DNA from: a virus
Taxonomy: Duplodnaviria; Heunggongvirae; Uroviricota; Caudoviricetes
Length of the DNA stretch: 64,000 nt
Reading direction: 5' to 3' (one strand)
Virus record (IMG/VR): IMGVR_UViG_3300038412_000041
In this document: positions 27,285 through 54,335 of the stretch, piece after piece
How positions within the stretch are numbered: the first letter of the stretch is position 1
Layout: each line of letters starts with the position of its first letter
Made by a program: the position numbers and the translations under genes
The notes under the pieces: generated by a model
What the model was told of the DNA's origin: nothing
Databases searched by the model: none
The model's input: the letters and a program-made list of their open reading frames with translations, nothing else

Positions 27285-27818
27285 ATGTATACAACATTCA
27301 TTCAAATTTACTCCGCTTCTGGTATTCTTCCAAAGTTCGCCAAAGAAGGCGATTCCGGTATGGATGTTCAATATTGGGAACCAAACCAAACTCTCCAAGG
27401 TCATGAGCATGACTGTACTGTTGATATCGAACCCTTCATTGTAATTCCTCCAAACGAACGACGTTTAATCCCAACAGGTCTTTTTGTAGCCATTCCAAAG
27501 GGTTACGAGATGCAAGTTCGCAGTCGCAGTGGCTTGGCTCTGAAACGCGGAGTCTTTGTTTTGAATAGTCCTGGAACTATTGATAGTGGTTATCGTGGTG
27601 AGATTAAAATCATTCTCCAAAATATGGGCAAAGACCCATTCGCTGTTAGAATTGGTGATAGAGTAGCACAACTAGTCGTGGCAAAGGTTGTTGGTGAAGG
27701 CTCACTTGGAGTTAAAGTTATGGTTGATGAATTAGATTTAGGTCAAACCTCACGTGATACAGGTGGATTTGGAAGCACTGGTGTTTCTTCAGATAGTGGT
27801 TCCGTAGTGGCGGAGTAA
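27285..27818 (+). CDS. dut: dUTP pyrophosphatase (trimeric dUTPase)
   Basis: Motifs DSGMDV, RSRSG, GTIDSGYRGE and RVAQLVV, equivalent to dUTPase motifs 1-4. Confidence 0.85.
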   Translation: MYTTFIQIYSASGILPKFAKEGDSGMDVQYWEPNQTLQGHEHDCTVDIEPFIVIPPNERRLIPTGLFVAIPKGYEMQVRSRSGLALKRGVFVLNSPGTIDSGYRGEIKIILQNMGKDPFAVRIGDRVAQLVVAKVVGEGSLGVKVMVDELDLGQTSRDTGGFGSTGVSSDSGSVVAE

Positions 27819-31461: not shown

Positions 31462-31641
31462 ATGATTGCACGTTTTGTTTTATTTTGGGTAATAACAACA
31501 GGTCTTTGTTTTGCTTATGCTTGGATCATGACCAACCAGGATAAGCAGTTGTTTAAACTTTGGTCAAAACGTATTTCCATTTCTGCCTTAATTGCCTTTC
31601 TTCTGCTAATATGTATCGTCATTTTGGAGAGACACTCATGA
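31462..31641 (+). CDS. small two-helix membrane protein, translationally coupled (ATGA) to the SPFH gene; NfeD-like partner candidate
   Basis: 59 aa, below the ORF-track cutoff: MIARFVLFWVITTGLCFAYAWIM...ALIAFLLLICIVILERHS. Ribosome-binding site GGGAGA. The stop overlaps the SPFH start codon. Confidence 0.35.
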   Translation: MIARFVLFWVITTGLCFAYAWIMTNQDKQLFKLWSKRISISALIAFLLLICIVILERHS

Positions 31642-32447
31642 AACTTCGTAACTTTATCTTTTTGCCTATACTCTGTATCGTGCTGACTGCTTGTGGTAAC
31701 ATTGATACAGGTCATGTAGGTGTTCGCACTACATTTGGACAAGTGTCTCAAAATCCTGAGAACCCTGGATTCTATATTGCTATTCTTAGTCACGTTGACG
31801 AGTACTCTGCAAAGCAGATTGCTATTGATCTGAAAAACATGACTCCTAAAGCCAAGGACAATTTGAATCTGGAAGACTTGGATTTGACGGTTTATTACGA
31901 AGTTGCACCTAGCAAAATTCCGTCTCTTGCTACAAAATATTCAGGTCAGTCTATTTTTGAACACAGTCTAGGTTATCCTGGATACGTATTGGTTGAAAAT
32001 TTGGCAAAGGCAGTAACTTTTGATGAAGTAGCAAAGCATGACTCTATGACAATTCATCTATACCGGCAGGAAGTTGAAGCTGATATTAAGAGTACGCTTC
32101 AAGCAGAGCTTAATCAGTCTGACCCAAGTGTATTTACGATTACACGCGTGGCTATTCTTCAGGCAAAGACGGATCGTGCTGTAGAAGAGTCTATCGTTCG
32201 TGCTGTAACTGTACAAAAAGAGGTAGAAGCCAAGAAGCAACAGATTGAGTTGGCTAAAGCTGAAGCTACAAGAGCTATCGCAGAAGCAGGAGGCATTGCT
32301 CAAAGTAATCAAATGGTAGCAGCCAGTATTAGCAAGGAACTAGTAGAGTATAAGAAAGCTGAAGCTATGCAGACGTGTGCCGCAACCTCTGGTTGTGCCA
32401 TGACATTGATCGTTGGAAATGCAACACCTTTGATTAACGTAAAGTAA
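31638..32447 (+). CDS. SPFH/band-7 (prohibitin/HflK-like) lipoprotein
   Basis: Signal peptide plus lipobox MKLRNFIFLPILCIVLTAC. SPFH core IDTGHVGVRTTFGQV...PGFYIA and a C-terminal EAKKQQIELAKAEATRAIAEAGG coiled coil. Start chosen at 31638 (ribosome-binding site GGAGA) rather than the ORF-track start 31560. Confidence 0.65.
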   Translation: MKLRNFIFLPILCIVLTACGNIDTGHVGVRTTFGQVSQNPENPGFYIAILSHVDEYSAKQIAIDLKNMTPKAKDNLNLEDLDLTVYYEVAPSKIPSLATKYSGQSIFEHSLGYPGYVLVENLAKAVTFDEVAKHDSMTIHLYRQEVEADIKSTLQAELNQSDPSVFTITRVAILQAKTDRAVEESIVRAVTVQKEVEAKKQQIELAKAEATRAIAEAGGIAQSNQMVAASISKELVEYKKAEAMQTCAATSGCAMTLIVGNATPLINVK

Positions 32448-32454
32448 AAATTAG

Positions 32455-32904
32455 GTGATACTAATGAACAAAAAAGCTTATTTTGCAATGGTTCTTTCGA
32501 CTGCGTGTTTATTAATATCCTTAGTGTCTGCATATTTGTATAGAACAGTACCAGGATACAAAGATTTGTTTATCGAGATAGCAATAGTGGCAGGCGTTAT
32601 CTCTTTTGTTTCCTACACACGCTACAAGAAAAACAAGGTATCAACACCCAGATATCGAGCAGTCAAGTTTGAAAGAGCGGGTTCAGATGTGGAAATGTGG
32701 GTAGTACAAGAGTATGGTGTTCATCTTGAACACGATGGTACTACCACTTTAGGTTACGAACAGATCGGCAGTACGTTTAACACTGCTGAACAAGCTCAGG
32801 CTTATCTCAATAGTCTGTTAGTTATGGGTGGGCAATGCAAGTATACTTACTACACACCAGATGAATTGAGAGCAGAGCTAGAAACAAAACATTTAGGACT
32901 ATAA
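32455..32904 (+). CDS. membrane-anchored hypothetical protein
   Basis: 149 aa with two N-terminal hydrophobic helices. Confidence 0.35.
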   Translation: MILMNKKAYFAMVLSTACLLISLVSAYLYRTVPGYKDLFIEIAIVAGVISFVSYTRYKKNKVSTPRYRAVKFERAGSDVEMWVVQEYGVHLEHDGTTTLGYEQIGSTFNTAEQAQAYLNSLLVMGGQCKYTYYTPDELRAELETKHLGL

Positions 32905-32908
32905 TCAA

Positions 32909-33256
32909 ATGGGTATGTTTAATCAGAATGATTTTCTAGAACCTTTGCAGGTCAATACACAACAATCAGATTTAAAGTCGGCGTTAGTCAACAAAATCCA
33001 ACACATTTTTAAAAGGAAAGAAAAAGTGAACCCAAATTTTGAATTAGTAGTAAAGTTCGCCAAGTTTTACATGAATGACACGTCTAAAGAAATCACTAAT
33101 GAAACAAAGTTGATGGAGGTACTTGACGATTCTTTGGACCTTGTAGAGTTTGCAATGGACATTGAAGAGACAGTTAAAACCAGCATTCCTGATTATGTAG
33201 TCGAGAGTTGGAAAACTATAGGTGATGTAGTCGAGTATCTTGATACACATAGTTGA
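32909..33256 (+). CDS. acyl carrier protein-like
   Basis: LMEVLDDSLDLVEFAMDIEETV matches the acyl carrier protein phosphopantetheine-attachment signature (DSL). Confidence 0.5.
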   Translation: MGMFNQNDFLEPLQVNTQQSDLKSALVNKIQHIFKRKEKVNPNFELVVKFAKFYMNDTSKEITNETKLMEVLDDSLDLVEFAMDIEETVKTSIPDYVVESWKTIGDVVEYLDTHS

Positions 33257-34936: not shown

Positions 34937-35557
34937 ATGAAAACACATCACAAGCTAGACACTGACACGCATGTATTTTTCTATGAACAGGAGTTTTACG
35001 TACTATCTAACTTTTCAGCTTTCACCTTGTACTGGAAACAGAAGATTTTTCAAACCTCAGAAGCTGCATACCACTATGAAAAATTTACTGGAAACCCAAC
35101 ATTACAGGATTTGATACATGGGGCTCCTTCAGCACACGAAGCTTATAAGATTGCTGGTCTAAACAAAGATCAAGTAAGAAAAGATTGGTTTGAGGTTCGT
35201 ACTCAGATAATGCGAAATATTCTTATAGCAAAGGCCAGTCAACACCAGTATGTTCTGAAAAAGCTTTTAGAAAGTGGTGATCGTGAGCTAGTAGAAGATT
35301 CCTGGAGAGACGATTATTGGGGATGGGGTCCTAACAAAGATGGTGAAAACATGTTAGGTAAATTATGGATGGAAGTCCGAGCATTGTTTCAACAATTTGA
35401 ACCTACAACTACTGGTATTGGTAGTGGTCATGTGCTCCCTGGTATCTTGACCAACATTGGTGATGGTTATGCTGCATATTGTCCTGGTATAGGTAATGCT
35501 GGACAACCAAGTTCCTTTATTAATGAGTCTATGCGTAACCACAAGGAATCAAAATGA
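34937..35557 (+). CDS. NADAR (YbiA-like) domain protein
   Basis: FYVLSNFSAF, FQTSEAAYHYEKF, VRTQIMRNILIAKASQHQ and DDYWGWG..GENMLGKLWMEVR align with YbiA/NADAR motifs. ATG 34937 with an AAGGTG ribosome-binding site (ORF-track TTG start at 34922). Confidence 0.7.
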   Translation: MKTHHKLDTDTHVFFYEQEFYVLSNFSAFTLYWKQKIFQTSEAAYHYEKFTGNPTLQDLIHGAPSAHEAYKIAGLNKDQVRKDWFEVRTQIMRNILIAKASQHQYVLKKLLESGDRELVEDSWRDDYWGWGPNKDGENMLGKLWMEVRALFQQFEPTTTGIGSGHVLPGILTNIGDGYAAYCPGIGNAGQPSSFINESMRNHKESK

Positions 35558-36342
35558 ATCTTGAACACGTTATTAAGGTCGATACTGACTATGGTGTAAT
35601 GTATCTTAATTCTCAAGACACCGCGCAAACACCTTTCTTTTTACATACAAGAAAAGCTATCAATCATAATGAGCTTGAGCTTTTGAATCAGGTCTGCAAT
35701 ATTCTTTTCAATCATGGACAGTTTGATCTAGTTGATGGTGGTTCGCACGTCGGAACTTATCCTTTATTCTTCAAAAAGTTTAATCCTAGACTAGGACAAG
35801 TCTTTTCATTTGAGCCTATTCCACGTTTTGCCGAAATGCAGATGGAGAGCATTCTGCTAAACTACCCAATAGAAGAAACTAGAAATATGCATGTTTGGGT
35901 TAAAGCACTTGGTAGAAATCCTGGAGTACTTTTAGTACCAAGTCTTGACTATTCAAAACTTACAAACTTTGGTGGCATAGAGTGGGGTCACGATCAGCTA
36001 GAGGATATTGGTCAACATGTTACACGGTCTACTGATGACAAAGTAGAGGTTGTAACCTTAGAGTCTATAGAGCCTAGATTGGCTGATAAGCTATTCATAA
36101 AGTTAGACGTTGAAGGTATGGAAGAAGATGTGCTGCAAGGTGCAAAAGAAATGTTGCTCTCTAAGAGACCTCTACTGTTTGTAGAATTTATCAAGTCTAA
36201 CCAAGAGAATTTAAAAAGCATTTTGAAGGAACTTGATTACAGAATCTTTAGAACGAACACTGACTTTCTTTGTATTAATCGACAGTCTCCTTATATGGAA
36301 GTTGCTTGTAGTTTAGTAGAGTCTCAGTATAATGAGGAGTGA
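35554..36342 (+). CDS. FkbM-family SAM-dependent methyltransferase
   Basis: FDLVDGGSHVGTYPLFF (motif I) and IKLDVEGMEEDVLQGAKEML..RPLLFVEF (FkbM signature). Confidence 0.6.
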   Translation: MNLEHVIKVDTDYGVMYLNSQDTAQTPFFLHTRKAINHNELELLNQVCNILFNHGQFDLVDGGSHVGTYPLFFKKFNPRLGQVFSFEPIPRFAEMQMESILLNYPIEETRNMHVWVKALGRNPGVLLVPSLDYSKLTNFGGIEWGHDQLEDIGQHVTRSTDDKVEVVTLESIEPRLADKLFIKLDVEGMEEDVLQGAKEMLLSKRPLLFVEFIKSNQENLKSILKELDYRIFRTNTDFLCINRQSPYMEVACSLVESQYNEE

Positions 36343-36345
36343 AAC

Positions 36346-36882
36346 ATGGTTGATCTACATCTTGTGGAAAAAGCAAGGTCTTATGCTACATGGGCGCACG
36401 GTGATATAGGACAACGTCGAAAGTATACCGACGAGCCTTACATTGTCCATCCAAAAGCAGTAGTTGATATCTTGACAGGTGTCAATAAACATACCACGCA
36501 GATGCTATGTCTAGGATGGTTGCACGATGTTGTCGAAGATGTTCCTAATATAACTATAGACAACATTAACATGGCTTTTGGACAGGAACTTGCAGAAGCT
36601 ATGGAGTTTATCACAGACAGGAAATCTCCATATCTCAACCGTTATACAAGAAAAGCAATATACAGAGCAAAGCTCTCCATCGCCCCTGACTGGGTAAAAA
36701 CAGTAAAACTGGCAGACTGTATAGATAACCTTGACTCGATAATCAAATATGATTCTCAGTTTGCTAAAGTGTATGTCTATGAAAAACAGTTGATGCTTCC
36801 GTACCTGATAGGCGGTGATGCCCAACTATATCATAGACTTGCCAGTATCCTACAAAAATATGAGGATTCCAAGAATGGATAA
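36346..36882 (+). CDS. HD-domain (p)ppGpp/ppApp hydrolase-like (small alarmone hydrolase)
   Basis: DEPYIVHPKAVVDIL...LGWLHDVVEDV matches the RelA/SpoT HD hydrolase motif (PYI.HP.AVA..L...A.LHDV.EDT). Confidence 0.6.
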   Translation: MVDLHLVEKARSYATWAHGDIGQRRKYTDEPYIVHPKAVVDILTGVNKHTTQMLCLGWLHDVVEDVPNITIDNINMAFGQELAEAMEFITDRKSPYLNRYTRKAIYRAKLSIAPDWVKTVKLADCIDNLDSIIKYDSQFAKVYVYEKQLMLPYLIGGDAQLYHRLASILQKYEDSKNG

Positions 36883-37720
36883 ACCTATTCTCTGCATCTA
36901 CCACGATCAATGTGTGGATGGTTTCACCGCTTATTGTTTGTTGGCGACCAAGTTTAATGTTGAACCTTTTGCAGCCAACTATAACAATCCACCTCCAGAT
37001 GTTACTGATAGAGTTGTGTACATTTTGGATTTTTCATATCCTCTTGAAGTCATGCAGTCCATAATTGAAAAAGCTAGACATGTTGTACTTATGGACCACC
37101 ATGCTTCTGCCATAAGGAATCTAAATAGTTTAGAGTCTTCAGACAAGTTTGAAAAATATATGGACCTGGATAGATCAGGAGCCATGATTGTTTTTGACCA
37201 TTTAAAAGAAGGCAATACTTTTGCAGGAATCAAAGCCAGTATATTTAGAGAGTTTGTCGATTATGTTCAGGATCGTGATCTATGGAGAAAGCAGTTAGAC
37301 ATGACAGAGGAAGTATACGCAGCAATCTTTAGTTATCCTTTTGATTATGATACATACATCAACCTAATATTTTCAGGTATAGAAAAATTAAAAGAAGAGG
37401 GAATAGCTTTACTTCGTAATCACAGAAAAGTAGTAGACGAACTTTTGAAGAACTATGCAAGACCTATGACTGTTGCAGGTTACAAAGTGTTGGCTGTAAA
37501 TTCTCCGAAAATGTACGCCAGTGATGTTGCAAGCATATTAGCCGAATCATATCCTTTTGGTGTTTGTTATAGAGATACTAGTGAAGGCCGGATATTTGAT
37601 TTGCGTTCTAGAAAAGACGGTATTGATGTTTCAAAGATCGCTGAATCTTATGGAGGTGGTGGTCACAAACACGCATCTGGTTTCAAAATGCCTATCTACA
37701 AGTTGATGGATTCTATATAA
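36875..37720 (+). CDS. DHH/DHHA1 phosphoesterase (NrnA/RecJ-like nanoRNase or oligonucleotide phosphodiesterase)
   Basis: DHH motifs YHDQCVDGFTA, ILDFSYP and VVLMDHHAS, plus DHHA1 GGGGHKHASGF. Start at ATG 36875 (ribosome-binding site GAGGA), overlapping the upstream stop by 8 nt. The ORF-track start 36815 would overlap by 68 nt. Confidence 0.65.
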   Translation: MDKPILCIYHDQCVDGFTAYCLLATKFNVEPFAANYNNPPPDVTDRVVYILDFSYPLEVMQSIIEKARHVVLMDHHASAIRNLNSLESSDKFEKYMDLDRSGAMIVFDHLKEGNTFAGIKASIFREFVDYVQDRDLWRKQLDMTEEVYAAIFSYPFDYDTYINLIFSGIEKLKEEGIALLRNHRKVVDELLKNYARPMTVAGYKVLAVNSPKMYASDVASILAESYPFGVCYRDTSEGRIFDLRSRKDGIDVSKIAESYGGGGHKHASGFKMPIYKLMDSI

Positions 37721-38182
37721 ATGGTTGATGGTAGAAAAGACCTTACATCAAAATTGAAACAAGTTGCCTCAAAATACTTTGCCAAAAAGAACTACTCTGT
37801 ACACTTTGAATTAGGTCTAGTCCCTTGGGGCAAACTCAAAGCTGACATATTTGCATTTAACTATGGTTATGCAACGGTTATCTGTGAGGTAAAGTCATGT
37901 TATGAAGATTTTGGAACAGATAAGAAATGGAGAGCTTACACTCCCTATGCAGATCGTTGTTATTTCGTCATTGATTTGGAGGCATGGTCTGAAAAACAAA
38001 TCGAGAAATTAAAGACTCTTTCCAAAGTTGAAGGGTGGGGAATATTGGTTGTAAATAACGGAAGAGTAAAGTGTCTTCAAAATTCCAAGAATCGAGCAAC
38101 TAACCGTAAAACAAAAACATCAAAAGACTTACACCTTCTTATAAAACGCATAGCTTTTAGAGCGGGTATAACCAGGAAATAG
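37721..38182 (+). CDS. PD-(D/E)xK nuclease-fold protein candidate
   Basis: ADIFAF...TVICEVKS is a D...E-x-K arrangement. 153 aa. Confidence 0.35.
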   Translation: MVDGRKDLTSKLKQVASKYFAKKNYSVHFELGLVPWGKLKADIFAFNYGYATVICEVKSCYEDFGTDKKWRAYTPYADRCYFVIDLEAWSEKQIEKLKTLSKVEGWGILVVNNGRVKCLQNSKNRATNRKTKTSKDLHLLIKRIAFRAGITRK

Positions 38183-38183
38183 T

Positions 38184-38837
38184 ATGAAACCAAAAAGAAT
38201 AGTTCTGGTCAGGCACGGACAATCAGAAGCAAATGTTGATAAAAGCATTTACCTGCATAAGCAAGATCACATCATTGATCTCACTGAAACAGGTAAACAA
38301 CAAGCCGTGACCTGCAGCAAAGAGTTGAAAAACTTGTTCGGTAATGAAAGTGTCCGAGTTTATTCTTCACCTTACAACAGAGCAATTCAAACTCTTGACA
38401 TTCTTCAACCACATATCAATATGGAAGGCAAACCGTTTCTTGATCCTAGAATTAGAGAGCAAGAGTGGGGAAATTTCCGTAATCTTGAGGAAGTGAAACT
38501 TGCTAATGAGCAACGTAACAAGTACGGCTCCTTCTTTTTCAGACTACCAAACGGAGAATCCTGTGCTGACGTTTTTGACAGAGTTAGTGGATTCATGTCT
38601 TCAATGCATCGAGCCTTCGACAAACTAGATTTTCCTGATAACACTTTACTGATAACACATGGTTGTTTGATTAGAGTATTCCTAATGCGCTGGTTTCGTT
38701 GGGACTATACCTACTTTCAAAAGATCAACAACCCTGCAAATTGCAGTATTGTCTTATTGGAAAAATACAACTCAGAAAAATACGAGTTGGTGGATTATAC
38801 AACTGAAGAGTACTCCGAGTATGAGGCTTCAAAATGA
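38184..38837 (+). CDS. histidine phosphatase superfamily (phosphoglycerate-mutase-like) protein
   Basis: N-terminal IVLVRHGQSEAN RHG catalytic motif. 217 aa. Confidence 0.6.
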   Translation: MKPKRIVLVRHGQSEANVDKSIYLHKQDHIIDLTETGKQQAVTCSKELKNLFGNESVRVYSSPYNRAIQTLDILQPHINMEGKPFLDPRIREQEWGNFRNLEEVKLANEQRNKYGSFFFRLPNGESCADVFDRVSGFMSSMHRAFDKLDFPDNTLLITHGCLIRVFLMRWFRWDYTYFQKINNPANCSIVLLEKYNSEKYELVDYTTEEYSEYEASK

Positions 38838-39424
38838 ATTTGTACGATACGTTAGGTATTAAAAAAGATGCAACACCAGAAGAGATAAAAGCTGCCTATA
38901 GAAAACGCGCCCAATCAACACATCCAGATAGAAAGGGTGGTGATATGGTAGTGTTTCAGAAAATAAATAAAGCCTACTCTATTCTGTCAAAACGCCATCT
39001 TCGGAAGCGTTACGATGAGACAGGTCATACAGATATGCCACCTGATGTTGAAACAGATCAGGATATGGAGTTTGTAAAAAAGATTGGTGATATGCTATTC
39101 CAACTACTTGACAATCCAAATGTCAATATGGATACACACCACCTCATTGATAGCATGAAACGTATTATTCAAGATACGAAAAGAGGTAGACAGCAACAGA
39201 TTCAAAATCTAAATAGATTGATTCTTCTTAGAAAGAAAGCTATCAAACGAATAATCAGAAAGGACAAGACCAAACGTAACCCAATCAAGATTTTCTTGGA
39301 AGGCAGTATCAGTCAACTTGAGCAAAGAAAAGGGCAGTTAGAATACGAAATTAAAGACGACGAGGATTGCTTGGTGTTCCTTAATGACTTCGATCAACTG
39401 CCAATAGATGAAGGTTTTATTTAG
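38834..39424 (+). CDS. J-domain (DnaJ-like) protein
   Basis: NLYDTLGIKKDATPEEIKAAYRKRAQSTHPDRKGG...INKAYSILS contains the HPD tripeptide and J-domain helices. Confidence 0.65.
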   Translation: MNLYDTLGIKKDATPEEIKAAYRKRAQSTHPDRKGGDMVVFQKINKAYSILSKRHLRKRYDETGHTDMPPDVETDQDMEFVKKIGDMLFQLLDNPNVNMDTHHLIDSMKRIIQDTKRGRQQQIQNLNRLILLRKKAIKRIIRKDKTKRNPIKIFLEGSISQLEQRKGQLEYEIKDDEDCLVFLNDFDQLPIDEGFI

Positions 39425-40364: not shown

Positions 40365-41324
40365 ATGAAACAATATATAGAGCTATTAAACAAAGTAATG
40401 ACTGAAGGTACAGATCAGTTCAATGAGAGAACCGGCAAAATTTGCCGATTTCTTGTAGGTTATCAGATGCAATTCAATATGGCAGATGGTTTTCCTTTAG
40501 TTACTACCAGAAAGGCCCCGTTCAAAAGCATTGTTGGAGAGTTGCTTGGTTTCTTCCGTGGTTACGATAACGCTGCTGATTTTCGCAGTCTAGGTTGCAA
40601 GTTTTGGGATGGTAATGCAAACGAAACTGAAGCTTGGTTGAAGAATCCAAATCGTAAAGGTACTGATGATCTCGGTCGCATTTATGGTAAGCAATGGGCC
40701 GAGTGGTTGGATACAAGAGTAGTACATGGTATTGACTCTTACTCAGATCATAAAGATAGAGGCTACGAATTTGTTGCAGATATTGACAGTTATAATCCTA
40801 GTTATGTTGTTCAAAGGAAAATCAATCAGTTGGAGAATGCCCTCAGAACTATCATGATTAATCCTTCAGACAGGAGAATTATTGTCACTGGTTGGAATCC
40901 TGCAGAAATGGATTTGCAAGCTTTGCCAGCTTGTCACATGGACTATCGGTTTGTTCCTGTAGAACGTGCAAACACGTTACATGTAGTAATGACAATACGT
41001 AGTTGGGATTTGTTTCTAGGTGCTCCCGCCAACATTGCTGAGACTGCTCTTTTCCTGCATCTAATGTGCGCTCTGTCTGGATATCATCCTGGAACAGTTA
41101 CGATCCAAGCTACAAATGCTCATATCTATGAAGATCATTTTGAACAGATCAAAGAACAGCTAACCAGAGAACCTCACCAGTTGCCTACCATTCTTGTGTC
41201 TGATGAGTTACGTATTTCATCGGAAGCATCTATAAGTGGTGTGTTTACTAGAATCCAGCCTACAGATGTAGAGTTGTTGAATTATACACACCATGATCCT
41301 TTGTTTGGTGAAATGGCTAGATAA
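40365..41324 (+). CDS. thyA: thymidylate synthase family enzyme (ThyA; dUMP hydroxymethylase cannot be excluded)
   Basis: DGFPLVTTRK, GELLGFF (Glu58 equivalent), RIYGKQW, RRIIVTGWNP, LPACHMDY (catalytic Cys-His), RSWDLFLGAPANIAE (uracil-specifying Asn retained). Confidence 0.8.
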   Translation: MKQYIELLNKVMTEGTDQFNERTGKICRFLVGYQMQFNMADGFPLVTTRKAPFKSIVGELLGFFRGYDNAADFRSLGCKFWDGNANETEAWLKNPNRKGTDDLGRIYGKQWAEWLDTRVVHGIDSYSDHKDRGYEFVADIDSYNPSYVVQRKINQLENALRTIMINPSDRRIIVTGWNPAEMDLQALPACHMDYRFVPVERANTLHVVMTIRSWDLFLGAPANIAETALFLHLMCALSGYHPGTVTIQATNAHIYEDHFEQIKEQLTREPHQLPTILVSDELRISSEASISGVFTRIQPTDVELLNYTHHDPLFGEMAR

Positions 41325-41339: not shown

Positions 41340-41918
41340 ATGTACTATACTGGTGTAGGAAGCAGAGAAACACCTGCCAATTTTCTTTTACTGTTTAAGA
41401 AACTGGCACAGGAGTTCGCAAAACAAAAGATTACACTGCGAACAGGTGGAGCAGATGGAGCCGATGCATATTTTGAAGAGGGTGCAATTTCTGTCAGAGG
41501 GCCGATGGAGATTTATATACCATGGGATAACTTCAATGGTTTACATGCTGATAACAAAACTTATTTTTCAAAGGTATCTAAAGCAGCAATGACTATTGCA
41601 GAATCAACACATCCTGCTTGGGATAGATTATCTATCGGTGCAAAAACTTTGCATGGTAGAAACGTGTATCAGGTACTTGGTCTCAGTCTAGATAAACCTT
41701 CTGCCTTTTTGATTTGCTGGACTCCTGATGGTTGCGAATCTGCAACCACAAGAACAAAACAGACTGGAGGCACTGCAACTGCAATAGCCATCGCAGAAAA
41801 ACATAACGTACCTGTAATCAATGTGGCTAACAAAGCATGGGTTGACAGACTACTTGATTTACCATGCATTAAAAACAAGACACCGTTTACAAAATATAAA
41901 GCACCTACTTTATTCTAA
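41340..41918 (+). CDS. SLOG-superfamily Rossmann protein (DprA/LOG-like)
   Basis: YTGVGSRETP...LRTGGADGADA and KQTGGTATAIAIAEKHNVPVINV resemble DprA/LOG signatures (GSR..; GG.G..G; PGG.GT.EE). Confidence 0.45.
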   Translation: MYYTGVGSRETPANFLLLFKKLAQEFAKQKITLRTGGADGADAYFEEGAISVRGPMEIYIPWDNFNGLHADNKTYFSKVSKAAMTIAESTHPAWDRLSIGAKTLHGRNVYQVLGLSLDKPSAFLICWTPDGCESATTRTKQTGGTATAIAIAEKHNVPVINVANKAWVDRLLDLPCIKNKTPFTKYKAPTLF

Positions 41919-41929: not shown

Positions 41930-43165
41930 ATGTTTCGCTTTCTATTGATTATGTTGTTGGCAGGTTGTGCAACTCAAGCACATAAAGACACTTATGTACC
42001 TGCAACTCCACCAAACGAAATAAAGTCTTTAAAGTCTGGATTTGATCTGGCGGAAGCAAGACAGATGTTAGAGTTTTGCATAGAGCTAAATGACCAGGAC
42101 GATAGATTGCGTAGTACTAGTATGGTTTATAAACCTGCCATAGATACAACTATCTGGAATCCTGAACCTGTATTTGATAGCAGACGTGTTGTTGCTCATG
42201 AGGTATATCAATACTACAAGAATCCGAAAGATTCTCCTTGGACAAAACTGTACGTAAAGATTTTGGCTAAGGCTAAAACCAAATACAATACTATAACGGA
42301 AAGCGTTATATACAATGATCCAGAGCTAAATGGTTTTGGTCCTTGGAATAATGCATGGTTATTGTATGAGGGGATCAATGATAATGCTGGTAATTACGCA
42401 ATAGCTGTTAGAGGCACTATCGTATCAAACAAAATGTCTGATATAGAGGATGCTCTATTCAGACCAGCAAAAGCTCAACACTTTCTATCACCCGCAATTC
42501 AGTTTTCTAAAGACCCTTATTCAGTACTTCACGGTGGATTCGCTCACGCAACCGTAGTCTTGTTGTTAGACGAAAAGTTTGGAATAGTGCCTGTACTGCA
42601 AAACAAAAATATTACAAAGCTCTACATAACTGGACATAGCCAAGGCGCAGCGATGGCGACATTATTGCATGCCTTCTTCCACTATTCAACTGATTCTGTG
42701 TTTGGTCTTGGCAGCTATCAGATAAAGTCTTACGTGTTTGCTCAACCTAAGCCAGGGAATGTATTCTTCAGCCAAGACTTTGCTTCATTTACCCAGTATG
42801 GTGATTCAGCAATTACTATAAATAACTCTGTTGATGTGGTACCTAAAGTACCACTCACAATAGAGACAACAGAAGATATAAATCCTTTGCTTAAAAAGGA
42901 AGAAGCTCTTCACGTTCTTAGTGATACTGGTTCATTCTTACGTAGGTCTGTAGAAAATCTAATACAACCGTATTCTGCTAAAGAACTCCTTGCTTATGGA
43001 AGGCTATACAAACAAGATTTGTTAAATCTTCATGAGGATAAAGAAGTAACCTCGTGGAATTTTGTTAGTGCTGGCCGTGTTCTTTATGTGTATGGAACTC
43101 CTGACTATTCCAAGGATACATTCTATCAACATCATGCTACTACCTACCGTGAACTATTAAAATGA
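41930..43165 (+). CDS. class-3 lipase-like alpha/beta-hydrolase lipoprotein
   Basis: Lipobox LLAGCAT at the N-terminus. Nucleophile elbow TGHSQGAAMATLL (GHSxG). Confidence 0.55.
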   Translation: MFRFLLIMLLAGCATQAHKDTYVPATPPNEIKSLKSGFDLAEARQMLEFCIELNDQDDRLRSTSMVYKPAIDTTIWNPEPVFDSRRVVAHEVYQYYKNPKDSPWTKLYVKILAKAKTKYNTITESVIYNDPELNGFGPWNNAWLLYEGINDNAGNYAIAVRGTIVSNKMSDIEDALFRPAKAQHFLSPAIQFSKDPYSVLHGGFAHATVVLLLDEKFGIVPVLQNKNITKLYITGHSQGAAMATLLHAFFHYSTDSVFGLGSYQIKSYVFAQPKPGNVFFSQDFASFTQYGDSAITINNSVDVVPKVPLTIETTEDINPLLKKEEALHVLSDTGSFLRRSVENLIQPYSAKELLAYGRLYKQDLLNLHEDKEVTSWNFVSAGRVLYVYGTPDYSKDTFYQHHATTYRELLK

Positions 43166-43355: not shown

Positions 43356-44147
43356 ATGATATACAAAGAAGCCTACGACAGTATTTTATCCGTATTAGAG
43401 AAATTATTTACATGTGAGAACTGTACGGAGGATATATGGGACTTTATTGTGACGCACGAAGGGTTTTCGTATAAGGTATGTATCCTTGATAAGGGCTTCT
43501 ATACAAGGTCATCACTACAAGAATCTCTTCGCAATGTTACCGTTGATGACAACTATTGTATGGTGTTCATTCCTTATTTCATAGATTTAGCAGACGACCG
43601 AATCTTAAAGTTTCTTTTTAGGATCAACGATTCAAAATTTGGTAAAGGTAAGCATGGTTTCTTCAACGACCATGTTTTTCCTATAGATTTCAATGAAGGT
43701 GGTAACGATCTCTTAGTAAGAAATCTGACTGATCTGTGTGAAGGAGGTTGCGAAGATATAGCAGTAGATGTAGCAAAATCCTTATTTGATAGTAATCTTG
43801 ATGTTGACTTGAAAAAGTCCAACATGTACATAATCAATTATTTGCAAAGCACCTTTCATGAAAAACATCCATTAACTTTTGCAGAAGGGAGATTCCCTGC
43901 AATATTGGAGAAAAGCTTTTACGACGGAACAGAAGACTTTTGCTCTGGGTGTGCTATGCAGTTGTTGGATGATATGGTAGCCGATATAAATTCTGATTGG
44001 AACAGGAACCAAACTCAAGTCTTAGACAGAGCAATCTTGTTAGCTTCTATGCTAGGTAACGTTGCAAAACACAATCCTGATTTGGATCATGAACAACAAA
44101 CGGAATTACTACCAATATCAGGAAGAAAGACCCCCACAATACATTAA
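43356..44147 (+). CDS. hypothetical protein
   Basis: 263 aa ORF. Confidence 0.4.
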   Translation: MIYKEAYDSILSVLEKLFTCENCTEDIWDFIVTHEGFSYKVCILDKGFYTRSSLQESLRNVTVDDNYCMVFIPYFIDLADDRILKFLFRINDSKFGKGKHGFFNDHVFPIDFNEGGNDLLVRNLTDLCEGGCEDIAVDVAKSLFDSNLDVDLKKSNMYIINYLQSTFHEKHPLTFAEGRFPAILEKSFYDGTEDFCSGCAMQLLDDMVADINSDWNRNQTQVLDRAILLASMLGNVAKHNPDLDHEQQTELLPISGRKTPTIH

Positions 44148-44159
44148 AGGTATAGTACC

Positions 44160-44621
44160 ATGAATATATCTATGAAACCTTACTCTTGTAAGGTATTCCT
44201 GTTCGATGACTGGTACACATTAAAGAGCGTAAACATTGACCATGAGTTCGATTCAATGTATCAAATGTATACAGGAAGATCATCAATCTTTTTAGATTTG
44301 GCTTGTGATGTATCAGTAAAATTTCCTTACTCTTCAGTGTTCTCAAGATCAGTAGCGTTAAAATACACAAATCCAAATGGTTCAGAGGTTATTGCTAGTG
44401 GTGTATACCCATTTGAGGATAGAATAAAACTGCTACACCGTATTAATGACGTTGACCACCAGCAAAGAAAAATCTTTGTTTTTGGACAATGGCTTCCTTA
44501 CAAAGATTATCAAAAGAAACAAAGTCATTTAGGTTATCTTCTATGTATCACACTACCAGACTATTCAGAGATAAGTTTTCCTGAACATGGTCCTTTCATA
44601 GAAACCGTTAAATTTAAGTAG
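44160..44621 (+). CDS. hypothetical protein
   Basis: 153 aa ORF. Confidence 0.4.
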   Translation: MNISMKPYSCKVFLFDDWYTLKSVNIDHEFDSMYQMYTGRSSIFLDLACDVSVKFPYSSVFSRSVALKYTNPNGSEVIASGVYPFEDRIKLLHRINDVDHQQRKIFVFGQWLPYKDYQKKQSHLGYLLCITLPDYSEISFPEHGPFIETVKFK

Positions 44622-44656
44622 TACAACCCAGTAGTCTATAACTAATAGGAGTAGTC

Positions 44657-44941
44657 ATGCCAGACGAAAACACAACAATCAACTTTAATCTTACTATAAA
44701 TGAAGTTGACTTGCTGCTTGCTGCACTTGGAGAAATGCCTGCAAAAATGTCATTTGAGCTAATCTTCAAACTAAGGAGCACCGCTCAAATTCAACTTGCT
44801 GAAGCAAACAAACCAGCACCAGACCCTGCACCTATAGTGGCACCTCAACAAGCAGTACCTGCACAACAGACTTCCGAGTTTGTTAATACTCAGCCAGCAG
44901 TAACCGCAACACCAACTCCTGCAGAAACGCCTGCTGCATAA
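44657..44941 (+). CDS. hypothetical protein with P/A/Q-rich tail
   Basis: 94 aa ORF. Confidence 0.4.
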   Translation: MPDENTTINFNLTINEVDLLLAALGEMPAKMSFELIFKLRSTAQIQLAEANKPAPDPAPIVAPQQAVPAQQTSEFVNTQPAVTATPTPAETPAA

Positions 44942-44972
44942 AGAAGAGGGTGAAAGCCCTCTTCTAAACAAA

Positions 44973-45365
44973 ATGAAACCAGAAGATGATCCTACTTACG
45001 CTTTGGTTGAAAATCTATTAGATAATCAATCATATATACATCTAGATAAGATTACTGAAGAGTCGATTAATATTATATTTGAGAACAAGCTACCTCTTAG
45101 CGTGTATGAAAGACTAAAAGTTCCTGAACGTTCTAATGTGATTGGTTGGCGGTTCATTGACAAACAAGGCCACATGGAGTTAACTATAAAGACTAGGCTT
45201 GAAGAGAGACTTGAGATAGCGAATAAAAGATATGCTGGACCTCACAGATCAAGACGTTTAGCAAAACGGTGGGCCACTAGAAAAATGCATAATCTAGGTA
45301 ATCTTGCAGTGAGATTTGTTTCTCTACCACCATTAGTTGTTACTGGAAACCTTAATGTACTTTAA
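44973..45365 (+). CDS. hypothetical protein, tandem paralogue A (YAGPHRSRRLAKRWA family)
   Basis: Shares WRF(I/V)DKQGHME and YAGPHRSRRLAKRWA with the next gene. Confidence 0.45.
   Translation: MKPEDDPTYALVENLLDNQSYIHLDKITEESINIIFENKLPLSVYERLKVPERSNVIGWRFIDKQGHMELTIKTRLEERLEIANKRYAGPHRSRRLAKRWATRKMHNLGNLAVRFVSLPPLVVTGNLNVL
45231..45274 (+). repeat. 44-nt block identical to 45657..45700, inside paralogue A
   Basis: tatgctggacctcacagatcaagacgtttagcaaaacggtgggc is a perfect match in both paralogues, while the flanking coding sequence is diverged. Confidence 0.85.
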
Positions 45366-45380
45366 AATGGTTGATTAAAA

Positions 45381-45812
45381 ATGATATCAGAGGACGAGGT
45401 AAAAAGCAGACTAGAGGAACAACTTGTAAGCTTTCTGTCAAACAAGAATGTACCAGTTTATACGGATGTTCCTTCAATGTGCACCTCTATTGAGAACCAG
45501 ATTGAAGCCTTTCTTAATATGGTGCGTGGCAGCAGTATATCTGTTGTGGATTCCTCATATATCTATGGTTGGAGATTCGTTGATAAGCAAGGGCACATGG
45601 AGTTTCTTATAAAGAAGGCTTCAGGAGAGCTTATAACCAAATTTGTCAGTTCTAGCTATGCTGGACCTCACAGATCAAGACGTTTAGCAAAACGGTGGGC
45701 TAACAAGAAAGTAAGCAAGCTAGAGGTAGATATAAAGTTTGTTCCTGCAAGACCTGTAGATCATATTAACGTAAACTTAGTAGTAGGAAAACCAAATGAT
45801 ACCGAACATTGA
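45381..45812 (+). CDS. hypothetical protein, tandem paralogue B
   Basis: 143 aa. Shares motifs with 44973..45365. Confidence 0.45.
   Translation: MISEDEVKSRLEEQLVSFLSNKNVPVYTDVPSMCTSIENQIEAFLNMVRGSSISVVDSSYIYGWRFVDKQGHMEFLIKKASGELITKFVSSSYAGPHRSRRLAKRWANKKVSKLEVDIKFVPARPVDHINVNLVVGKPNDTEH
45657..45700 (+). repeat. second copy of the 44-nt identical block
   Basis: Perfect 44/44 identity with 45231..45274. Confidence 0.85.
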
Positions 45813-46530
45813 GATTGAAGTAAACCAGATTATAGGTTACGGTTGTCCTGACTCTTACCAAGTGCTAGTCATTTATGATAACCATGTTCTTGAAGAACAG
45901 ACAACAAACTCACCATTTTTACAAGGACAGTTTGCTGAAAGGTTGGAAAATAAATGGCGTGTTGAGTGGGATGAGCAAGCTTTTCTACAGCTAGTAGCTG
46001 AAAGCAGGTTAGCTTCCCCTATTTGTGATGGTTGCAACCAACCTACAAGAAATATTGGTAAAGAAAGCTCATACATAGGAGCAAAAGTTTTCTGTAGTGC
46101 TTGTAAGGATGTTTGTATTCCTCTCTACAGAAATCAATTGAGGCAAGAAGGTGAAGAACGAAATCGTAAGTTAGAAGAGGATAGAATTGCAAAACAAAAG
46201 GCACTTCATGATCGCATACATGAAATATTAGCTGGCGCCTTTCATTGGAAAGATAACTGGTTTTTCAAACGTCAAAGTGATGGCTCTGTTAGGATCATGA
46301 AACACAATTCTGAACACTACCCTCAATATGGTGATGGTACAGAAGTGCATGAATTTCTTTATCCTGACCTAGTCATTCCTGATAAAGAATGGGCATCAAT
46401 AGTATGTGTTGTCTCTAACCTTGGCACTACGTCCGATAGATACTCAAAAGCCTTAGCCTTTCATAACTATGAAGAGGCACAGTGTAAATCCGATAATCTA
46501 AAACCACCAATACTAAAGGTAGAGTACTAA
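45796..46530 (+). CDS. hypothetical Cys-rich protein
   Basis: 244 aa with CDGC..CSAC motifs. Confidence 0.4.
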   Translation: MIPNIEIEVNQIIGYGCPDSYQVLVIYDNHVLEEQTTNSPFLQGQFAERLENKWRVEWDEQAFLQLVAESRLASPICDGCNQPTRNIGKESSYIGAKVFCSACKDVCIPLYRNQLRQEGEERNRKLEEDRIAKQKALHDRIHEILAGAFHWKDNWFFKRQSDGSVRIMKHNSEHYPQYGDGTEVHEFLYPDLVIPDKEWASIVCVVSNLGTTSDRYSKALAFHNYEEAQCKSDNLKPPILKVEY

Positions 46531-46531
46531 A

Positions 46532-46765
46532 ATGGATAATCAACAATTACAACATTTAGCTGCTATACTGGCACCTGCCATATACACGGACAGTCCTACA
46601 TTCATGCAGCAATGTGTGACAGGCTTGTCTTTGATTTTAATAGGTTTTAGTCTTTCTCTAATCATATCACTGTCTATCATTGTTGCAACTAATACTGGTT
46701 CTGTTATAGGTACTACTATTAACAAAGCTGCAAAGCTATTGAGGGTTTTAAGAAATGGACGATAA
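46532..46765 (+). CDS. small transmembrane protein
   Basis: 77 aa, hydrophobic core. Confidence 0.3.
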   Translation: MDNQQLQHLAAILAPAIYTDSPTFMQQCVTGLSLILIGFSLSLIISLSIIVATNTGSVIGTTINKAAKLLRVLRNGR

Positions 46766-47084: not shown

Positions 47085-47113
47085 TCTATAGTACAACAAC
47101 TATAGACCTAGGC

Positions 47114-49017: not shown

Positions 49018-49026
49018 GGTAATGAA

Positions 49027-50899: not shown

Positions 50900-50915
50900 T
50901 AAGGAGAATTGATAA

Positions 50916-54321: not shown

Positions 54322-54335
54322 TCAGGAGTCTACAA

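What the first reader, a model, noticed from the sequence alone, without database searches (positions are those of the whole stretch)
34937..38837. Island of nucleotide-signal and ADP-ribose 'eraser' enzymes: NADAR, FkbM methyltransferase, HD alarmone hydrolase, DHH/DHHA1 phosphoesterase, PD-(D/E)xK, histidine phosphatase
Seen: six consecutive, partly overlapping genes with clear catalytic motifs. These are a YbiA/NADAR domain; an FkbM methyltransferase; a RelA/SpoT-type HD hydrolase (HP...LHDVVED); a DHH (DHH motif plus GGGH DHHA1); a D..E-x-K nuclease; and an RHG histidine phosphatase. Established: NADAR proteins remove ADP-ribose from guanine in DNA (DarT-type modification). Small alarmone hydrolases degrade (p)ppGpp/(p)ppApp. 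DHH/DHHA1 enzymes cleave pAp, nanoRNAs and cyclic di- or oligonucleotides. Inference: a concentrated counter-defence or host-takeover module that erases toxin- or defence-generated nucleotide signals (DarTG, alarmone-based defence or the stringent response, cyclic-oligonucleotide signalling).
Basis: partly seen in the sequence, partly recalled or inferred. Interest (0 to 1): 0.72.

Follow-up and report, generated by a model that had tools for sequence, protein, structure and literature searches.

The report
Six accessory enzyme genes, jumbo phage
An uncultivated ~190-kb phage carries six tightly packed, intact enzyme genes; at least two probably undo host anti-phage chemistry, but the six are not inherited together in other phages, so this is a loose collection of known gene types, not a new system.

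Summary
Six intact, co-directional genes at 34937-38837 encode a YbiA-type NADAR, an FkbM methyltransferase, a RelA/SpoT-type small alarmone hydrolase (SAH), a stand-alone DHH/DHHA1 phosphoesterase, an MmcB-like PD-(D/E)xK nuclease and a branch-1 histidine phosphatase. All pass profile searches and keep their catalytic residues. The SAH is 40% identical to the Salmonella phage SSU5 SAH, which neutralises toxSAS toxins experimentally. NADARs remove ADP-ribose from guanine. The 'counter-nucleotide' reading of HD, DHH and NADAR genes in jumbo phages was already published (Iyer et al. 2021). The six-gene arrangement occurs only in this phage. Of 292 IMG/VR loci anchored on four of the families, none has three of them, and no isolate phage has the set. 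Only pairs recur, in a few large-phage lineages: His-phosphatase with SAH, His-phosphatase with DHH, and NADAR with DHH. FkbM and MmcB-like show no linkage. The run lies in the replication and nucleotide-metabolism arm (dCMP deaminase, primase, dUTPase, ThyA) and has no promoter or terminator boundaries. These are new members of known kinds, of modest interest.

The parts
34937..35557 (+). YbiA-type NADAR domain protein (206 aa). The NADAR domain spans residues ~1-155. A Gly-rich C-terminal tail of ~50 aa has no counterpart in homologs.
   Evidence: PF08719 E=1.6e-26. TIGR02464 86.3 bits, above the 73.7 cut-off. Best PDB hit is E. coli YbiA 2b3w, E=1e-15. E42, K49 and E120 are invariant in 22 homologs at 58-65% identity to the window protein over the whole alignment (A5), 60-71% in local alignments; the tail is unaligned.
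35554..36342 (+). FkbM-family SAM-dependent methyltransferase (262 aa); substrate unknown.
   Evidence: PF05050 45.8 bits against a 22.7 cut-off. TIGR01444 63.1 bits against 37.7. phrog_8156. Only one weak hit in 50,697 phage records. No PDB relative by sequence.
36346..36882 (+). Small alarmone hydrolase: a single-domain RelA/SpoT-type HD pyrophosphohydrolase (178 aa).
   Evidence: PF13328 34 bits against a 27.2 cut-off. PDB hits: RelSeq hydrolase domain 1vj7 E=2.7e-13, Lmo0812, MESH1. 40% identity, E=1e-31, to the phage SSU5 SAH. H35, H60-D61, E64-D65, D124 and N128 are invariant.
36875..37720 (+). Stand-alone DHH/DHHA1 phosphoesterase (281 aa), NrnA/NrnB-like.
   Evidence: phrog_4771 E=4e-81. 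1464 homologs, which JGI labels NrnB-type. DHH motifs and GGGH are invariant. AlphaFold model has pLDDT 94.2. Foldseek probability 1.0 to NrnA, Pde2, DhhP, TM1595, PggH and GdpP.
37721..38182 (+). MmcB-like PD-(D/E)xK nuclease-fold protein (153 aa).
   Evidence: PF06319 43.8 bits against a 22 cut-off. PDB 3dnx E=4e-4. phrog_2776. D42, E56 and K58 are conserved with the GR7B homolog.
38184..38837 (+). Histidine phosphatase superfamily branch 1 (217 aa); substrate unknown.
   Evidence: PF00300 111.6 bits. No NCBIfam equivalog reaches its cut-off. PDB hits: TIGAR-like, CobC, PspA. R10, H11, R66, E94 and H159 are invariant in phage homologs.
38834..39424 (+). J-domain (DnaJ-like) protein. Its start overlaps the phosphatase stop. 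It continues the same gene run but is not part of the enzyme set.
   Evidence: PF00226 E=1.3e-18. GR7B also has a DnaJ gene upstream of ThyA.

Best explanation
This is a run of six independently evolving auxiliary enzyme genes. It lies in the early/replication and nucleotide-metabolism arm of an uncultivated ~190-kb jumbo myophage, whose nearest isolate is Vibrio phage GR7B. It is not a dedicated, co-inherited system. Likely roles follow; the family and residue assignments are shown, the substrates are inferred. (1) The HD protein is a small alarmone hydrolase. It removes the 3'-pyrophosphate from (p)ppGpp or (p)ppApp and from tRNA CCA ends pyrophosphorylated by toxSAS toxins, which blunts the stringent response and CapRel/FaRel-type abortive infection. 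(2) The NADAR is a YbiA-type N-glycohydrolase that can take ADP-ribose off guanine in DNA. (3) The DHH/DHHA1 enzyme cleaves short linear or cyclic (oligo)nucleotides or pAp. This either destroys signals or simply recycles nucleotides. (4) The histidine phosphatase is a phosphomonoesterase. It recurs beside SAH and DHH genes in other large phages, so it most likely finishes dephosphorylation in the same nucleotide-turnover chemistry. (5) The FkbM methyltransferase and the MmcB-like nuclease are unlinked passengers with unknown substrates. The genes are adjacent because large phages gather accessory nucleotide-handling genes in one plastic region, with weak selection keeping a few pairs together.
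For: Family membership and intact catalytic residues are shown for all six. The SAH is 40% identical to the experimentally validated SSU5 SAH (PMC7229694), and SAHs reverse tRNA pyrophosphorylation (bioRxiv 10.1101/2021.04.30.441581). The six-gene set is unique. All four island proteins looked up are singleton clusters at 90% identity, and the nearest homologs are 45% (DHH), 54% (HD) and ~70% (NADAR domain) identical. There is no co-occurrence of three or more families in 240 + 52 anchored IMG/VR loci or in 50,697 phage records. Pairs recur in independent lineages. His-phosphatase with HD: L266-271/L276 (60 nt apart), L261, L273. His-phosphatase with DHH: L256 (25 nt apart, with DprA-like and ThyA downstream as in the window) and phage ME3. 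NADAR with DHH: GR7B and IMGVR_UViG_3300050331_000001. The context is dCMP deaminase, primase, dUTPase/DCD and ThyA. No promoter or terminator delimits the run. His-phosphatase homologs in other phages sit near dCTP deaminase, TMP/dNMP kinases, or dUTPase/ThyA.
Against: No substrate was tested. The within-window clustering of nucleotide hydrolases is nominally significant (p=0.005, post hoc), and three different pairings recur elsewhere, so some functional coupling cannot be dismissed. Anchor sets were limited to the 80 closest loci per family and are dominated by a few lineages. FkbM and MmcB-like were never used as anchors in IMG/VR. Only 64 kb of the ~190-kb genome was available.
Confidence: 0.55

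Rival explanations
1. One reading: a coordinated counter-defence island in which every gene erases a different toxin- or defence-generated nucleotide signal or modification (DarT ADP-ribosylation, alarmone/toxSAS, cyclic oligonucleotides), kept together as an anti-defence gene cluster.
For: SAH homologs from phages neutralise toxSAS (PMC7229694). Phage NADARs counter DarTG1 (PMC11257639). DHH enzymes degrade cyclic di- and oligonucleotides in some systems, and Iyer et al. predicted such roles for jumbo phages (PMC7824862). The genes are tightly packed and co-directional. Clustering within the window has p=0.005-0.03.
Against: The six genes do not travel together anywhere else. The NADAR is YbiA-type, and E. 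coli YbiA did not protect against DarT1 in vivo (PMC11125620). FkbM, MmcB-like and the His-phosphatase have no known signal substrate. No PADLOC or anti-defence model is matched at significance. No phage DHH has experimental anti-CBASS or anti-CRISPR evidence in the searchable literature. Flanking genes are nucleotide metabolism, not known anti-defence genes.
Confidence: 0.18
2. A nucleotide-salvage and host-takeover set. The MmcB-like nuclease and DHH nanoRNase degrade host nucleic acid to mononucleotides. The His-phosphatase trims 3'- or 2'-phosphates. The SAH removes (p)ppGpp so that purine synthesis and replication are not shut down. All of this feeds the adjacent dNTP pathway (dCMP deaminase, dUTPase, ThyA).
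For: The run lies between dUTPase/DCD (27285-27818) and ThyA (40365-41324), with dCMP deaminase and primase upstream. His-phosphatase homologs in RTH11, Ab1-TPeters, ME3 and L256 lie beside dCTP deaminase, TMP/dNMP kinases, dUTPase or ThyA. The structural relatives of the DHH enzyme are nanoRNases and dinucleotide phosphodiesterases. DHH lies near RNase H and ligases in phage EL, CcrColossus and a 176-kb contig.
Against: The RNase H-DHH association does not generalise (0 of 80 loci). NADAR and FkbM have no place in a salvage scheme. In about 40-kb temperate phages the DHH gene sits next to integrase, repressor and DNA methylase genes, not nucleotide metabolism. Phage SAHs have a demonstrated anti-toxin activity.
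Confidence: 0.2
3. An RNA/tRNA end-healing set. SAH removes 3'-pyrophosphate, His-phosphatase and DHH remove 3'- or 2',3'-cyclic phosphates, NADAR processes ADP-ribose by-products of 2'-phosphate removal, and FkbM methylates the repaired end (Hen1-like).
For: In 68 of 80 IMG/VR loci holding the closest viral SAH relatives, the SAH lies inside a block of DSP-phosphatase, AAA_33 kinase, metallophosphatase, SAH and T4 Rnl1-type RNA ligase. Kurata et al. note a Pnk-like 3'-phosphatase role for SAHs. NADAR has been linked to RNA repair (PMC9503650).
Against: The window has no RNA ligase, polynucleotide kinase or KptA/Tpt1, and none of the four cassette partners. The FkbM-Hen1 analogy rests on no sequence evidence.
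Confidence: 0.05

Closest known systems
Phage small alarmone hydrolases (Salmonella phage SSU5 PaSpo-type and PVP-SE1 PbcSpo-type SAHs; Jimmy et al. 2020, PMC7229694)
   Same: A single HD_4 domain of ~170-210 aa with no synthetase domain and the same catalytic residues. The window protein is 40% identical to the SSU5 SAH over 160 aa.
   Different: The window protein is untested. It lies next to DHH and FkbM genes. In SSU5 the SAH lies among hypothetical genes near a DNA methyltransferase, and in most IMG/VR relatives it lies in an RNA-repair-like cassette.
YbiA family of the NADAR superfamily (E. coli YbiA; YarT-associated YbiA antitoxin; PMC11125620), and phage AdfN/gp30.3 (PMC11257639)
   Same: NADAR fold. 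The Glu and Lys seven residues apart (E42/K49) match the catalytic E36/K43 of AdfN. The last-strand Glu (E120) marks the YbiA family. NADARs of all subfamilies tested hydrolyse ADP-ribosyl-guanine in vitro.
   Different: It is not the AdfN type (His in the last strand) or the DarG1 type (Asp plus an N-terminal extension). E. coli YbiA did not rescue DarT1 toxicity in vivo. No ADP-ribosyltransferase partner was found in the window. It has a unique Gly-rich C-terminal tail of ~50 aa.
Stand-alone DHH-DHHA1 phosphodiesterases: NrnA, Pde2, CnpB/Rv2837c, TM1595, DhhP, PggH
   Same: Two-domain DHH/DHHA1 fold with all metal-binding motifs and GGGH present.
   Different: Only 12-18% identical to any solved enzyme. 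It belongs to a large, mostly viral clade (phrog_4771; 1464 homologs) with no characterised member, and its N-terminal motif reads H-x4-D-G. Its substrate is unknown.
'Counter-nucleotide and NAD+-centred systems' of jumbo phages (Iyer et al. 2021, PMC7824862 section 3.4.8; PMC9503650)
   Same: The same three families (HD alarmone PDEase, DHH PDEase, NADAR) in jumbo phages, with the same proposed role.
   Different: Those papers treat the families as separate genes scattered in genomes. Here they are contiguous, together with three families those sections do not discuss (FkbM, MmcB-like, histidine phosphatase).
Acinetobacter jumbo phage ME3 locus gp125-gp123 and IMG/VR contig 3300048854_000232 (L256)
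   Same: DHH and a homologous histidine phosphatase lie adjacent or one gene apart, with ThyA a few kb downstream.
   Different: No NADAR, FkbM, HD or MmcB-like gene. The gene between DHH and the phosphatase in ME3 is unrelated to MmcB. The gene order is inverted in L256.

Membership tests
NADAR superfamily, YbiA family | NADAR domain above the curated thresholds | tested here: met
   PF08719 93.9 bits against 35.1. TIGR02464 86.3 bits against 73.7.
NADAR superfamily, YbiA family | Catalytic Glu and Lys in the core helix, and a Glu (not Asp or His) in the last strand | tested here: met
   E42, K49 and E120 are invariant in alignment A5. They align with YbiA 'SEhyfqaqKF' and 'LVE'. Subfamily rule from PMC11125620.
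NADAR superfamily, YbiA family | Hydrolysis of ADP-ribosyl-guanine or riboflavin-intermediate N-glycosides | not testable with these tools
   Needs an enzyme assay.
Anti-DarTG1 phage NADAR (AdfN/gp30.3) or DarG1 antitoxin | Last-strand His (gp30.3) or Asp plus an N-terminal extension (DarG1); clusters with T4-like phage NADARs | tested here: not met
   The residue is Glu and there is no N-terminal extension. No T4-like phage appears among the 30 records listed (281 with a match), all at 36% identity or less. NF053876 'NADAR family anti-phage protein' scores 81.5 bits against a 240 cut-off.
RelA/SpoT homolog small alarmone hydrolase (SAH) | HD_4 hydrolase domain alone, with no synthetase or regulatory domains | tested here: met
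   178 aa. PF13328 34 bits against 27.2. It aligns to residues 24-152 of RelSeq.
RelA/SpoT homolog small alarmone hydrolase (SAH) | Metal and substrate residues: HP-His, HD, ED, the Asp of the KLAD motif and the Asn four residues after it | tested here: met
   H35, H60-D61, E64-D65, D124 and N128 are invariant in 24 sequences.
RelA/SpoT homolog small alarmone hydrolase (SAH) | Homology to an experimentally validated phage SAH | tested here: met
   40% identity, E=1e-31, to SSU5_099, validated in PMC7229694.
RelA/SpoT homolog small alarmone hydrolase (SAH) | (p)ppGpp/(p)ppApp or pyrophosphoryl-tRNA hydrolysis | not testable with these tools
   Needs an enzyme or toxicity-rescue assay.
DHH/DHHA1 phosphoesterase (NrnA/NrnB-like) | DHH motifs I-IV and the DHHA1 GGGH motif | tested here: met
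   H10, D15, D52, D74-H75-H76, D133/D135 and G260-G263-H264 are invariant in 34 sequences.
DHH/DHHA1 phosphoesterase (NrnA/NrnB-like) | Pfam DHH and DHHA1 domains above the gathering score | tested here: inconclusive
   DHHA1 scores 25.8 bits against 25.9, and the DHH domain is not reported. However, phrog_4771 gives E=4e-81 and the fold matches with probability 1.0.
DHH/DHHA1 phosphoesterase (NrnA/NrnB-like) | Substrate: nanoRNA, pAp, dinucleotide or cyclic nucleotide | not testable with these tools
   The fold search does not separate the subtypes.
FkbM methyltransferase family | Methyltransf_21 / TIGR01444 domain above cut-off | tested here: met
   45.8 bits against 22.7. 63.1 bits against 37.7.
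MmcB-like PD-(D/E)xK | PF06319 above cut-off with the D...E-x-K motif | tested here: met
   43.8 bits against 22, but only profile positions 15-90 of 148 are matched. D42, E56 and K58 are conserved.
Histidine phosphatase superfamily, branch 1 | RHG His, two Arg, a second His and the acid Glu | tested here: met
   PF00300 111.6 bits. R10, H11, R66, E94 and H159 are invariant. No specific equivalog reaches its cut-off.
Co-inherited counter-defence module / gene island | The same gene set recurs together in independent genomes | tested here: not met
   No anchored IMG/VR locus has three or more families. No isolate phage has them adjacent. Only pairs recur.
Co-inherited counter-defence module / gene island | Own regulatory boundaries or compositional distinctness | tested here: not met
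   Promoter-like sites number fewer than in shuffled sequence, and no terminator flanks the run. GC is 0.37-0.38, the same as the flanks.

The most novel reading that the evidence does not exclude
The SAH-type HD hydrolase, the DHH/DHHA1 enzyme and the histidine phosphatase (with NADAR as a frequent companion) could form a cooperating 'damage-reversal and clean-up' pathway of large phages. In this reading SAH and NADAR strip toxin-added pyrophosphate and ADP-ribose from tRNA and DNA, and the DHH enzyme and phosphatase destroy the released or residual phosphorylated products. That would explain why His-phosphatase/SAH, His-phosphatase/DHH and NADAR/DHH pairs recur in unrelated large phages, and why SAHs elsewhere sit next to other phosphomonoesterases in RNA-repair-like cassettes.
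Probability: 0.12. Interest if true: 0.65.

Novelty: new member of a known kind. Interest (0 to 1): 0.3.

Why it matters
If the SAH and NADAR are active, this phage adds natural examples of enzymatic counter-defence against toxSAS/alarmone and DNA ADP-ribosylation systems. Enzymatic counter-defences are still less commonly described than stoichiometric inhibitors. The recurring pairing of a histidine phosphatase with SAH or DHH genes in large phages gives a concrete lead to the substrate of a phage phosphatase family with no known function (phrog_12933). The SAH embedded in an RNA-ligase, kinase and phosphatase cassette supports the idea that SAHs act as RNA 3'-end repair enzymes. The six-gene cluster itself does not define a new system.

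Tried and rejected
1. Near-identical DNA in isolate phages: none. Close relatives in IMG/VR using single island or flanking proteins: none. The phage is a singleton.
2. I considered whether ME3 gp124, the gene between DHH and the phosphatase, is an MmcB homolog. It is not.
3. I considered whether the two genes between NADAR and DHH in GR7B are remote homologs of the window's FkbM or HD. They are not.
4. RNase H as a regular partner of the DHH gene looked plausible from phage EL, CcrColossus and a 176-kb contig. It is absent from all 80 DHH-anchored loci and from the window, so I rejected it.
5. The RNA-repair partners of the SAH (DSP phosphatase, AAA_33 kinase, metallophosphatase, Rnl1) have no homolog in the window.
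6. PADLOC defence models give no significant match to any island protein.
7. A shared contig length suggested that DHH homolog P0049 and NADAR homolog P0266 might be adjacent. No NADAR lies within 10 kb.
8. The fold search of the DHH model confirmed the fold but could not tell nanoRNase from cyclic-nucleotide phosphodiesterase.
9. There are no tRNA genes or Rfam families in the window.
10. PDB entry 9r7o, the best sequence hit for the DHHA1 part, is Borrelia DhhP. No paper on it is in the library.

Full report
WHAT IS THERE. The window is part of a large tailed phage. Structural genes lie on the minus strand at 1.8-12.8 kb, including a major head protein (phrog_2522, E=3e-75) and tail proteins. 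A single co-directional run of about 70 plus-strand genes then extends from 13 to 64 kb. The exact proteins occur on a 189,810-bp JGI contig and on a 15-kb Logan contig of the same phage. No near-identical DNA exists among 50,697 phage records. The nearest isolate is Vibrio phage vB_VcorM_GR7B (208 kb). Only 14 of 83 window proteins find a GR7B homolog, at 28-43% identity.

THE OBSERVATION. They are NADAR (PF08719, E=1.6e-26), FkbM methyltransferase (PF05050, TIGR01444), a RelA/SpoT-type HD_4 hydrolase (PF13328), a DHH/DHHA1 phosphoesterase (phrog_4771, E=4e-81; Pfam DHHA1 0.1 bit under its cut-off), an MmcB-like PD-(D/E)xK protein (PF06319) and a branch-1 histidine phosphatase (PF00300, E=5e-32). 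Catalytic residues are invariant in alignments with homologs. Homolog alignments and independent gene calls place the DHH start at 36875, not 36815, and the NADAR start at 34937. The 'overlaps' are therefore ordinary 4-8 nt start/stop overlaps. A J-domain gene (38834-39424) continues the run in the same way.

FINER ASSIGNMENTS.

The HD protein is a single-domain small alarmone hydrolase. It aligns with the hydrolase half of RelSeq and with Lmo0812 and MESH1. It is 40% identical (E=1e-31) to the Salmonella phage SSU5 SAH. That enzyme, together with the PVP-SE1 SAH, neutralised all five toxSAS toxins tested (PMC7229694). SAHs can also remove the pyrophosphate that toxSAS enzymes put on the tRNA CCA end.

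The NADAR is of the YbiA type. E. coli YbiA is its best solved relative (E=1e-15), it passes the TIGR02464 cut-off, and it has Glu in the last strand (E120). By the published rule, that Glu distinguishes YbiA from DarG1-type (Asp) and phage gp30.3/AdfN-type (His) NADARs (PMC11125620). All NADAR subtypes tested hydrolyse ADP-ribosyl-guanine in vitro, but E. coli YbiA did not protect against DarT1 in vivo (same paper). The NADAR domain is unusually conserved, at 60-71% identity to about 2,400 proteins, whereas the ~50-residue Gly-rich C-terminal tail is unique to this phage.

The DHH protein gives a confident model (pLDDT 94.2). Its closest solved structures are the stand-alone DHH-DHHA1 nanoRNases and dinucleotide phosphodiesterases (NrnA, Pde2, Rv2837c, TM1595, DhhP, PggH), at 12-18% identity. 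Substrate class cannot be resolved from this.

The histidine phosphatase reaches no NCBIfam equivalog cut-off. The FkbM gene has essentially no phage relatives, with one weak hit.

IS IT A MODULE? This was the main test. Concatenated-protein tblastn against all isolate phages found no record with the genes adjacent. The one exception is Acinetobacter jumbo phage ME3, which has DHH, an unrelated gene and a homologous histidine phosphatase in a row, with ThyA about 7 kb further on. I then fetched IMG/VR loci with flanks of up to 10 kb, anchored on alignments of the DHH, HD, NADAR and histidine-phosphatase families (80, 80, 80 and 52 loci). I scanned them with profile HMMs and phmmer. No locus contains three or more of the six families.

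In the DHH-, HD- and NADAR-anchored sets (3.4 Mb), a single contig has two families (DHH next to NADAR). The histidine-phosphatase set is different. An SAH-family gene lies within 10 kb in 9 of 52 loci. After dereplication this amounts to three lineages besides the window: a T4-like lineage in which the phosphatase is followed by the SAH after 60 nt, between DNA ligase and gp32 (L266-271, L276), plus L261 and L273. A DHH gene directly follows the phosphatase in L256, a 295-kb contig that also has DprA-like and ThyA genes downstream, as the window does. ME3 also reappears in this set.

GR7B, the nearest isolate, has NADAR, two unrelated small genes and then a DHH of the same family (HMM E=7e-50) in one run. 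It also has an MmcB-like gene directly after RecA/UvsX, but no HD, FkbM or histidine phosphatase.

The six-gene arrangement is therefore unique to this phage, while three pairings recur a few times in independent large phages: phosphatase with SAH, phosphatase with DHH, and NADAR with DHH. Because large phages concentrate nucleotide-handling genes in one arm, I regard this enrichment as suggestive, not proven.

CONTEXT. The run has no promoter- or terminator-like boundaries and no compositional shift. Upstream lie dCMP deaminase (20617-21093), primase (23649-24539), a GT9 glycosyltransferase, dUTPase/DCD (27285-27818), a Band_7 protein and an acyl carrier protein. Downstream lie DnaJ, ThyA (40365-41324), a DprA/SLOG-like protein, two lipase-type proteins, a C5 DNA methylase, a sigma-70-like factor, a BCS1-type AAA ATPase and UvsX. 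About 40% of plus-strand ORFs of at least 100 aa have a Pfam hit. A run of seven annotated genes has p=0.034, and four of five nucleotide hydrolases within six genes has p=0.005, though that class was defined post hoc. Histidine-phosphatase homologs in other large phages also lie beside dCTP deaminase, TMP/dNMP kinases or dUTPase/ThyA.

WHAT IT MOST LIKELY IS. It is a plastic stretch of the nucleotide-metabolism and early arm of a jumbo phage in which six auxiliary enzyme genes have accumulated. The SAH is the best-supported counter-defence enzyme. The NADAR is a plausible one. The DHH enzyme and histidine phosphatase handle phosphorylated nucleotides or short oligonucleotides, and their recurrent proximity to SAH or to each other hints at shared chemistry. 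FkbM and MmcB-like are passengers of unknown role. I put 0.55 on this reading, 0.18 on a coordinated counter-defence island, 0.20 on a mainly salvage/host-takeover role and 0.05 on an RNA-end-repair set. The last reading draws on a side observation: in 68 of 80 loci holding the closest viral SAH relatives, the SAH sits inside a block of DSP-phosphatase, AAA_33 kinase, metallophosphatase, SAH and Rnl1 RNA ligase. None of those partners is present in the window.

COMPARISON WITH WHAT IS KNOWN, AND NOVELTY. Iyer et al. 2021 (PMC7824862, section 3.4.8) already proposed that the HD alarmone phosphodiesterases, DHH phosphodiesterases and NADAR domains of jumbo phages counter nucleotide- and NAD-derived immune signals. 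NADAR domains occur in about 48% of medium and jumbo phages (PMC9503650). Phage SAH and phage NADAR counter-defence have experimental precedent (PMC7229694, PMC11257639). Each gene here is thus a new member of a known kind, and the contiguity is a peculiarity of one genome. I found no report of the phosphatase/SAH pairing in the searchable literature.

VERDICT. The novelty class is 'new member of a known kind', and I score interest at 0.3.

Noticed in passing
L085-L164 (IMG/VR loci with the closest viral relatives of the window's HD gene); also L306: In 68 of 80 loci the SAH-type HD gene lies inside a conserved block: DSP/PTP-like phosphatase, AAA_33 P-loop kinase, calcineurin-like metallophosphatase, SAH, then T4 Rnl1-type RNA ligase. 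This looks like an RNA/tRNA-repair cassette with an alarmone-hydrolase-type enzyme in it, which fits the reported ability of SAHs to remove 3'-pyrophosphate from tRNA. These 80 loci may be only a few related lineages.
   Followed up: partly
L266-L271, L276, L261, L273, L256, L295 (ME3): Phage histidine phosphatases (phrog_12933, unknown function) recur next to SAH genes: 60 nt apart in a T4-like lineage, between DNA ligase and gp32. They also recur next to DHH genes: 25 nt apart on a 295-kb contig with DprA-like and ThyA downstream. I found no report of either pairing.
   Followed up: partly
window 35400-35557: The NADAR protein ends in a Gly/Pro-rich tail of ~50 residues (…TTGIGSGHVLPGILTNIGDGYAAYCPGIGNAGQPSS…). 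None of 21 aligned homologs has it, although the NADAR domain itself is 60-71% identical to them. Its function is unknown.
   Followed up: no
L250 3248-6181 (Vibrio phage GR7B 196247-199180); L249 12061-12603: The nearest cultured relative has NADAR, a 93-aa gene, a 236-aa gene and then DHH in one run, and an MmcB-like gene directly after RecA/UvsX. The two intervening genes have no Pfam hit and are unrelated to the window's FkbM and HD genes.
   Followed up: partly
window 41340-41918: A 192-aa DprA/SLOG-like protein (PF02481, E=1.4e-5; weak PADLOC PsyrA hit) lies just after ThyA. A homolog at 28% identity lies between DHH and ThyA in L256, so this gene may belong to the same conserved neighbourhood.
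   Followed up: no
window 31560-33256, 41930-43165, 49027-50289 and ORFs within 43356-62592: The phage has an unusual set of membrane- and lipid-related genes: a Band_7/SPFH protein, an acyl carrier protein, a class-3 lipase, a patatin-like phospholipase and a BCS1-type AAA ATPase with the BCS1_N domain. The exact position of the patatin gene was not mapped.
   Followed up: no
window 20617-21093, 27285-27818, 40365-41324, plus a C5 DNA methylase among ORFs 43356-62592: dCMP deaminase, a dUTPase/dCTP-deaminase-like protein, a long-type (319-aa) thymidylate synthase and a C5 cytosine methylase occur together. This may indicate a modified pyrimidine or a remodelled dNTP pool.
   Followed up: no
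window 52510-54321: A 603-aa protein combines several small nuclease or zinc-finger domains (DUF4379 treble clef, DUF723, CapR, DUF559). It looks like a homing-endonuclease-type protein in the replication arm.
   Followed up: no
L307 5733-9360: On a 91-kb contig a close SAH homolog (49% identity) is flanked by DUF4326 (a domain Iyer et al. linked to NADAR, Macro and SLOG), a RecD2-like helicase, a DksA/TraR-type zinc finger and a PfkB-GGDEF protein. This is a third, different context for the same SAH family.
   Followed up: no
L005-L084 (DHH-anchored loci, mostly ~40-kb contigs): In smaller phages the DHH gene sits near an integrase, an S24 LexA-like repressor, DUF2303 and a C5 DNA methylase. 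That places it in the early or lysogeny-control region of temperate phages, not in a nucleotide-metabolism region.
   Followed up: partly
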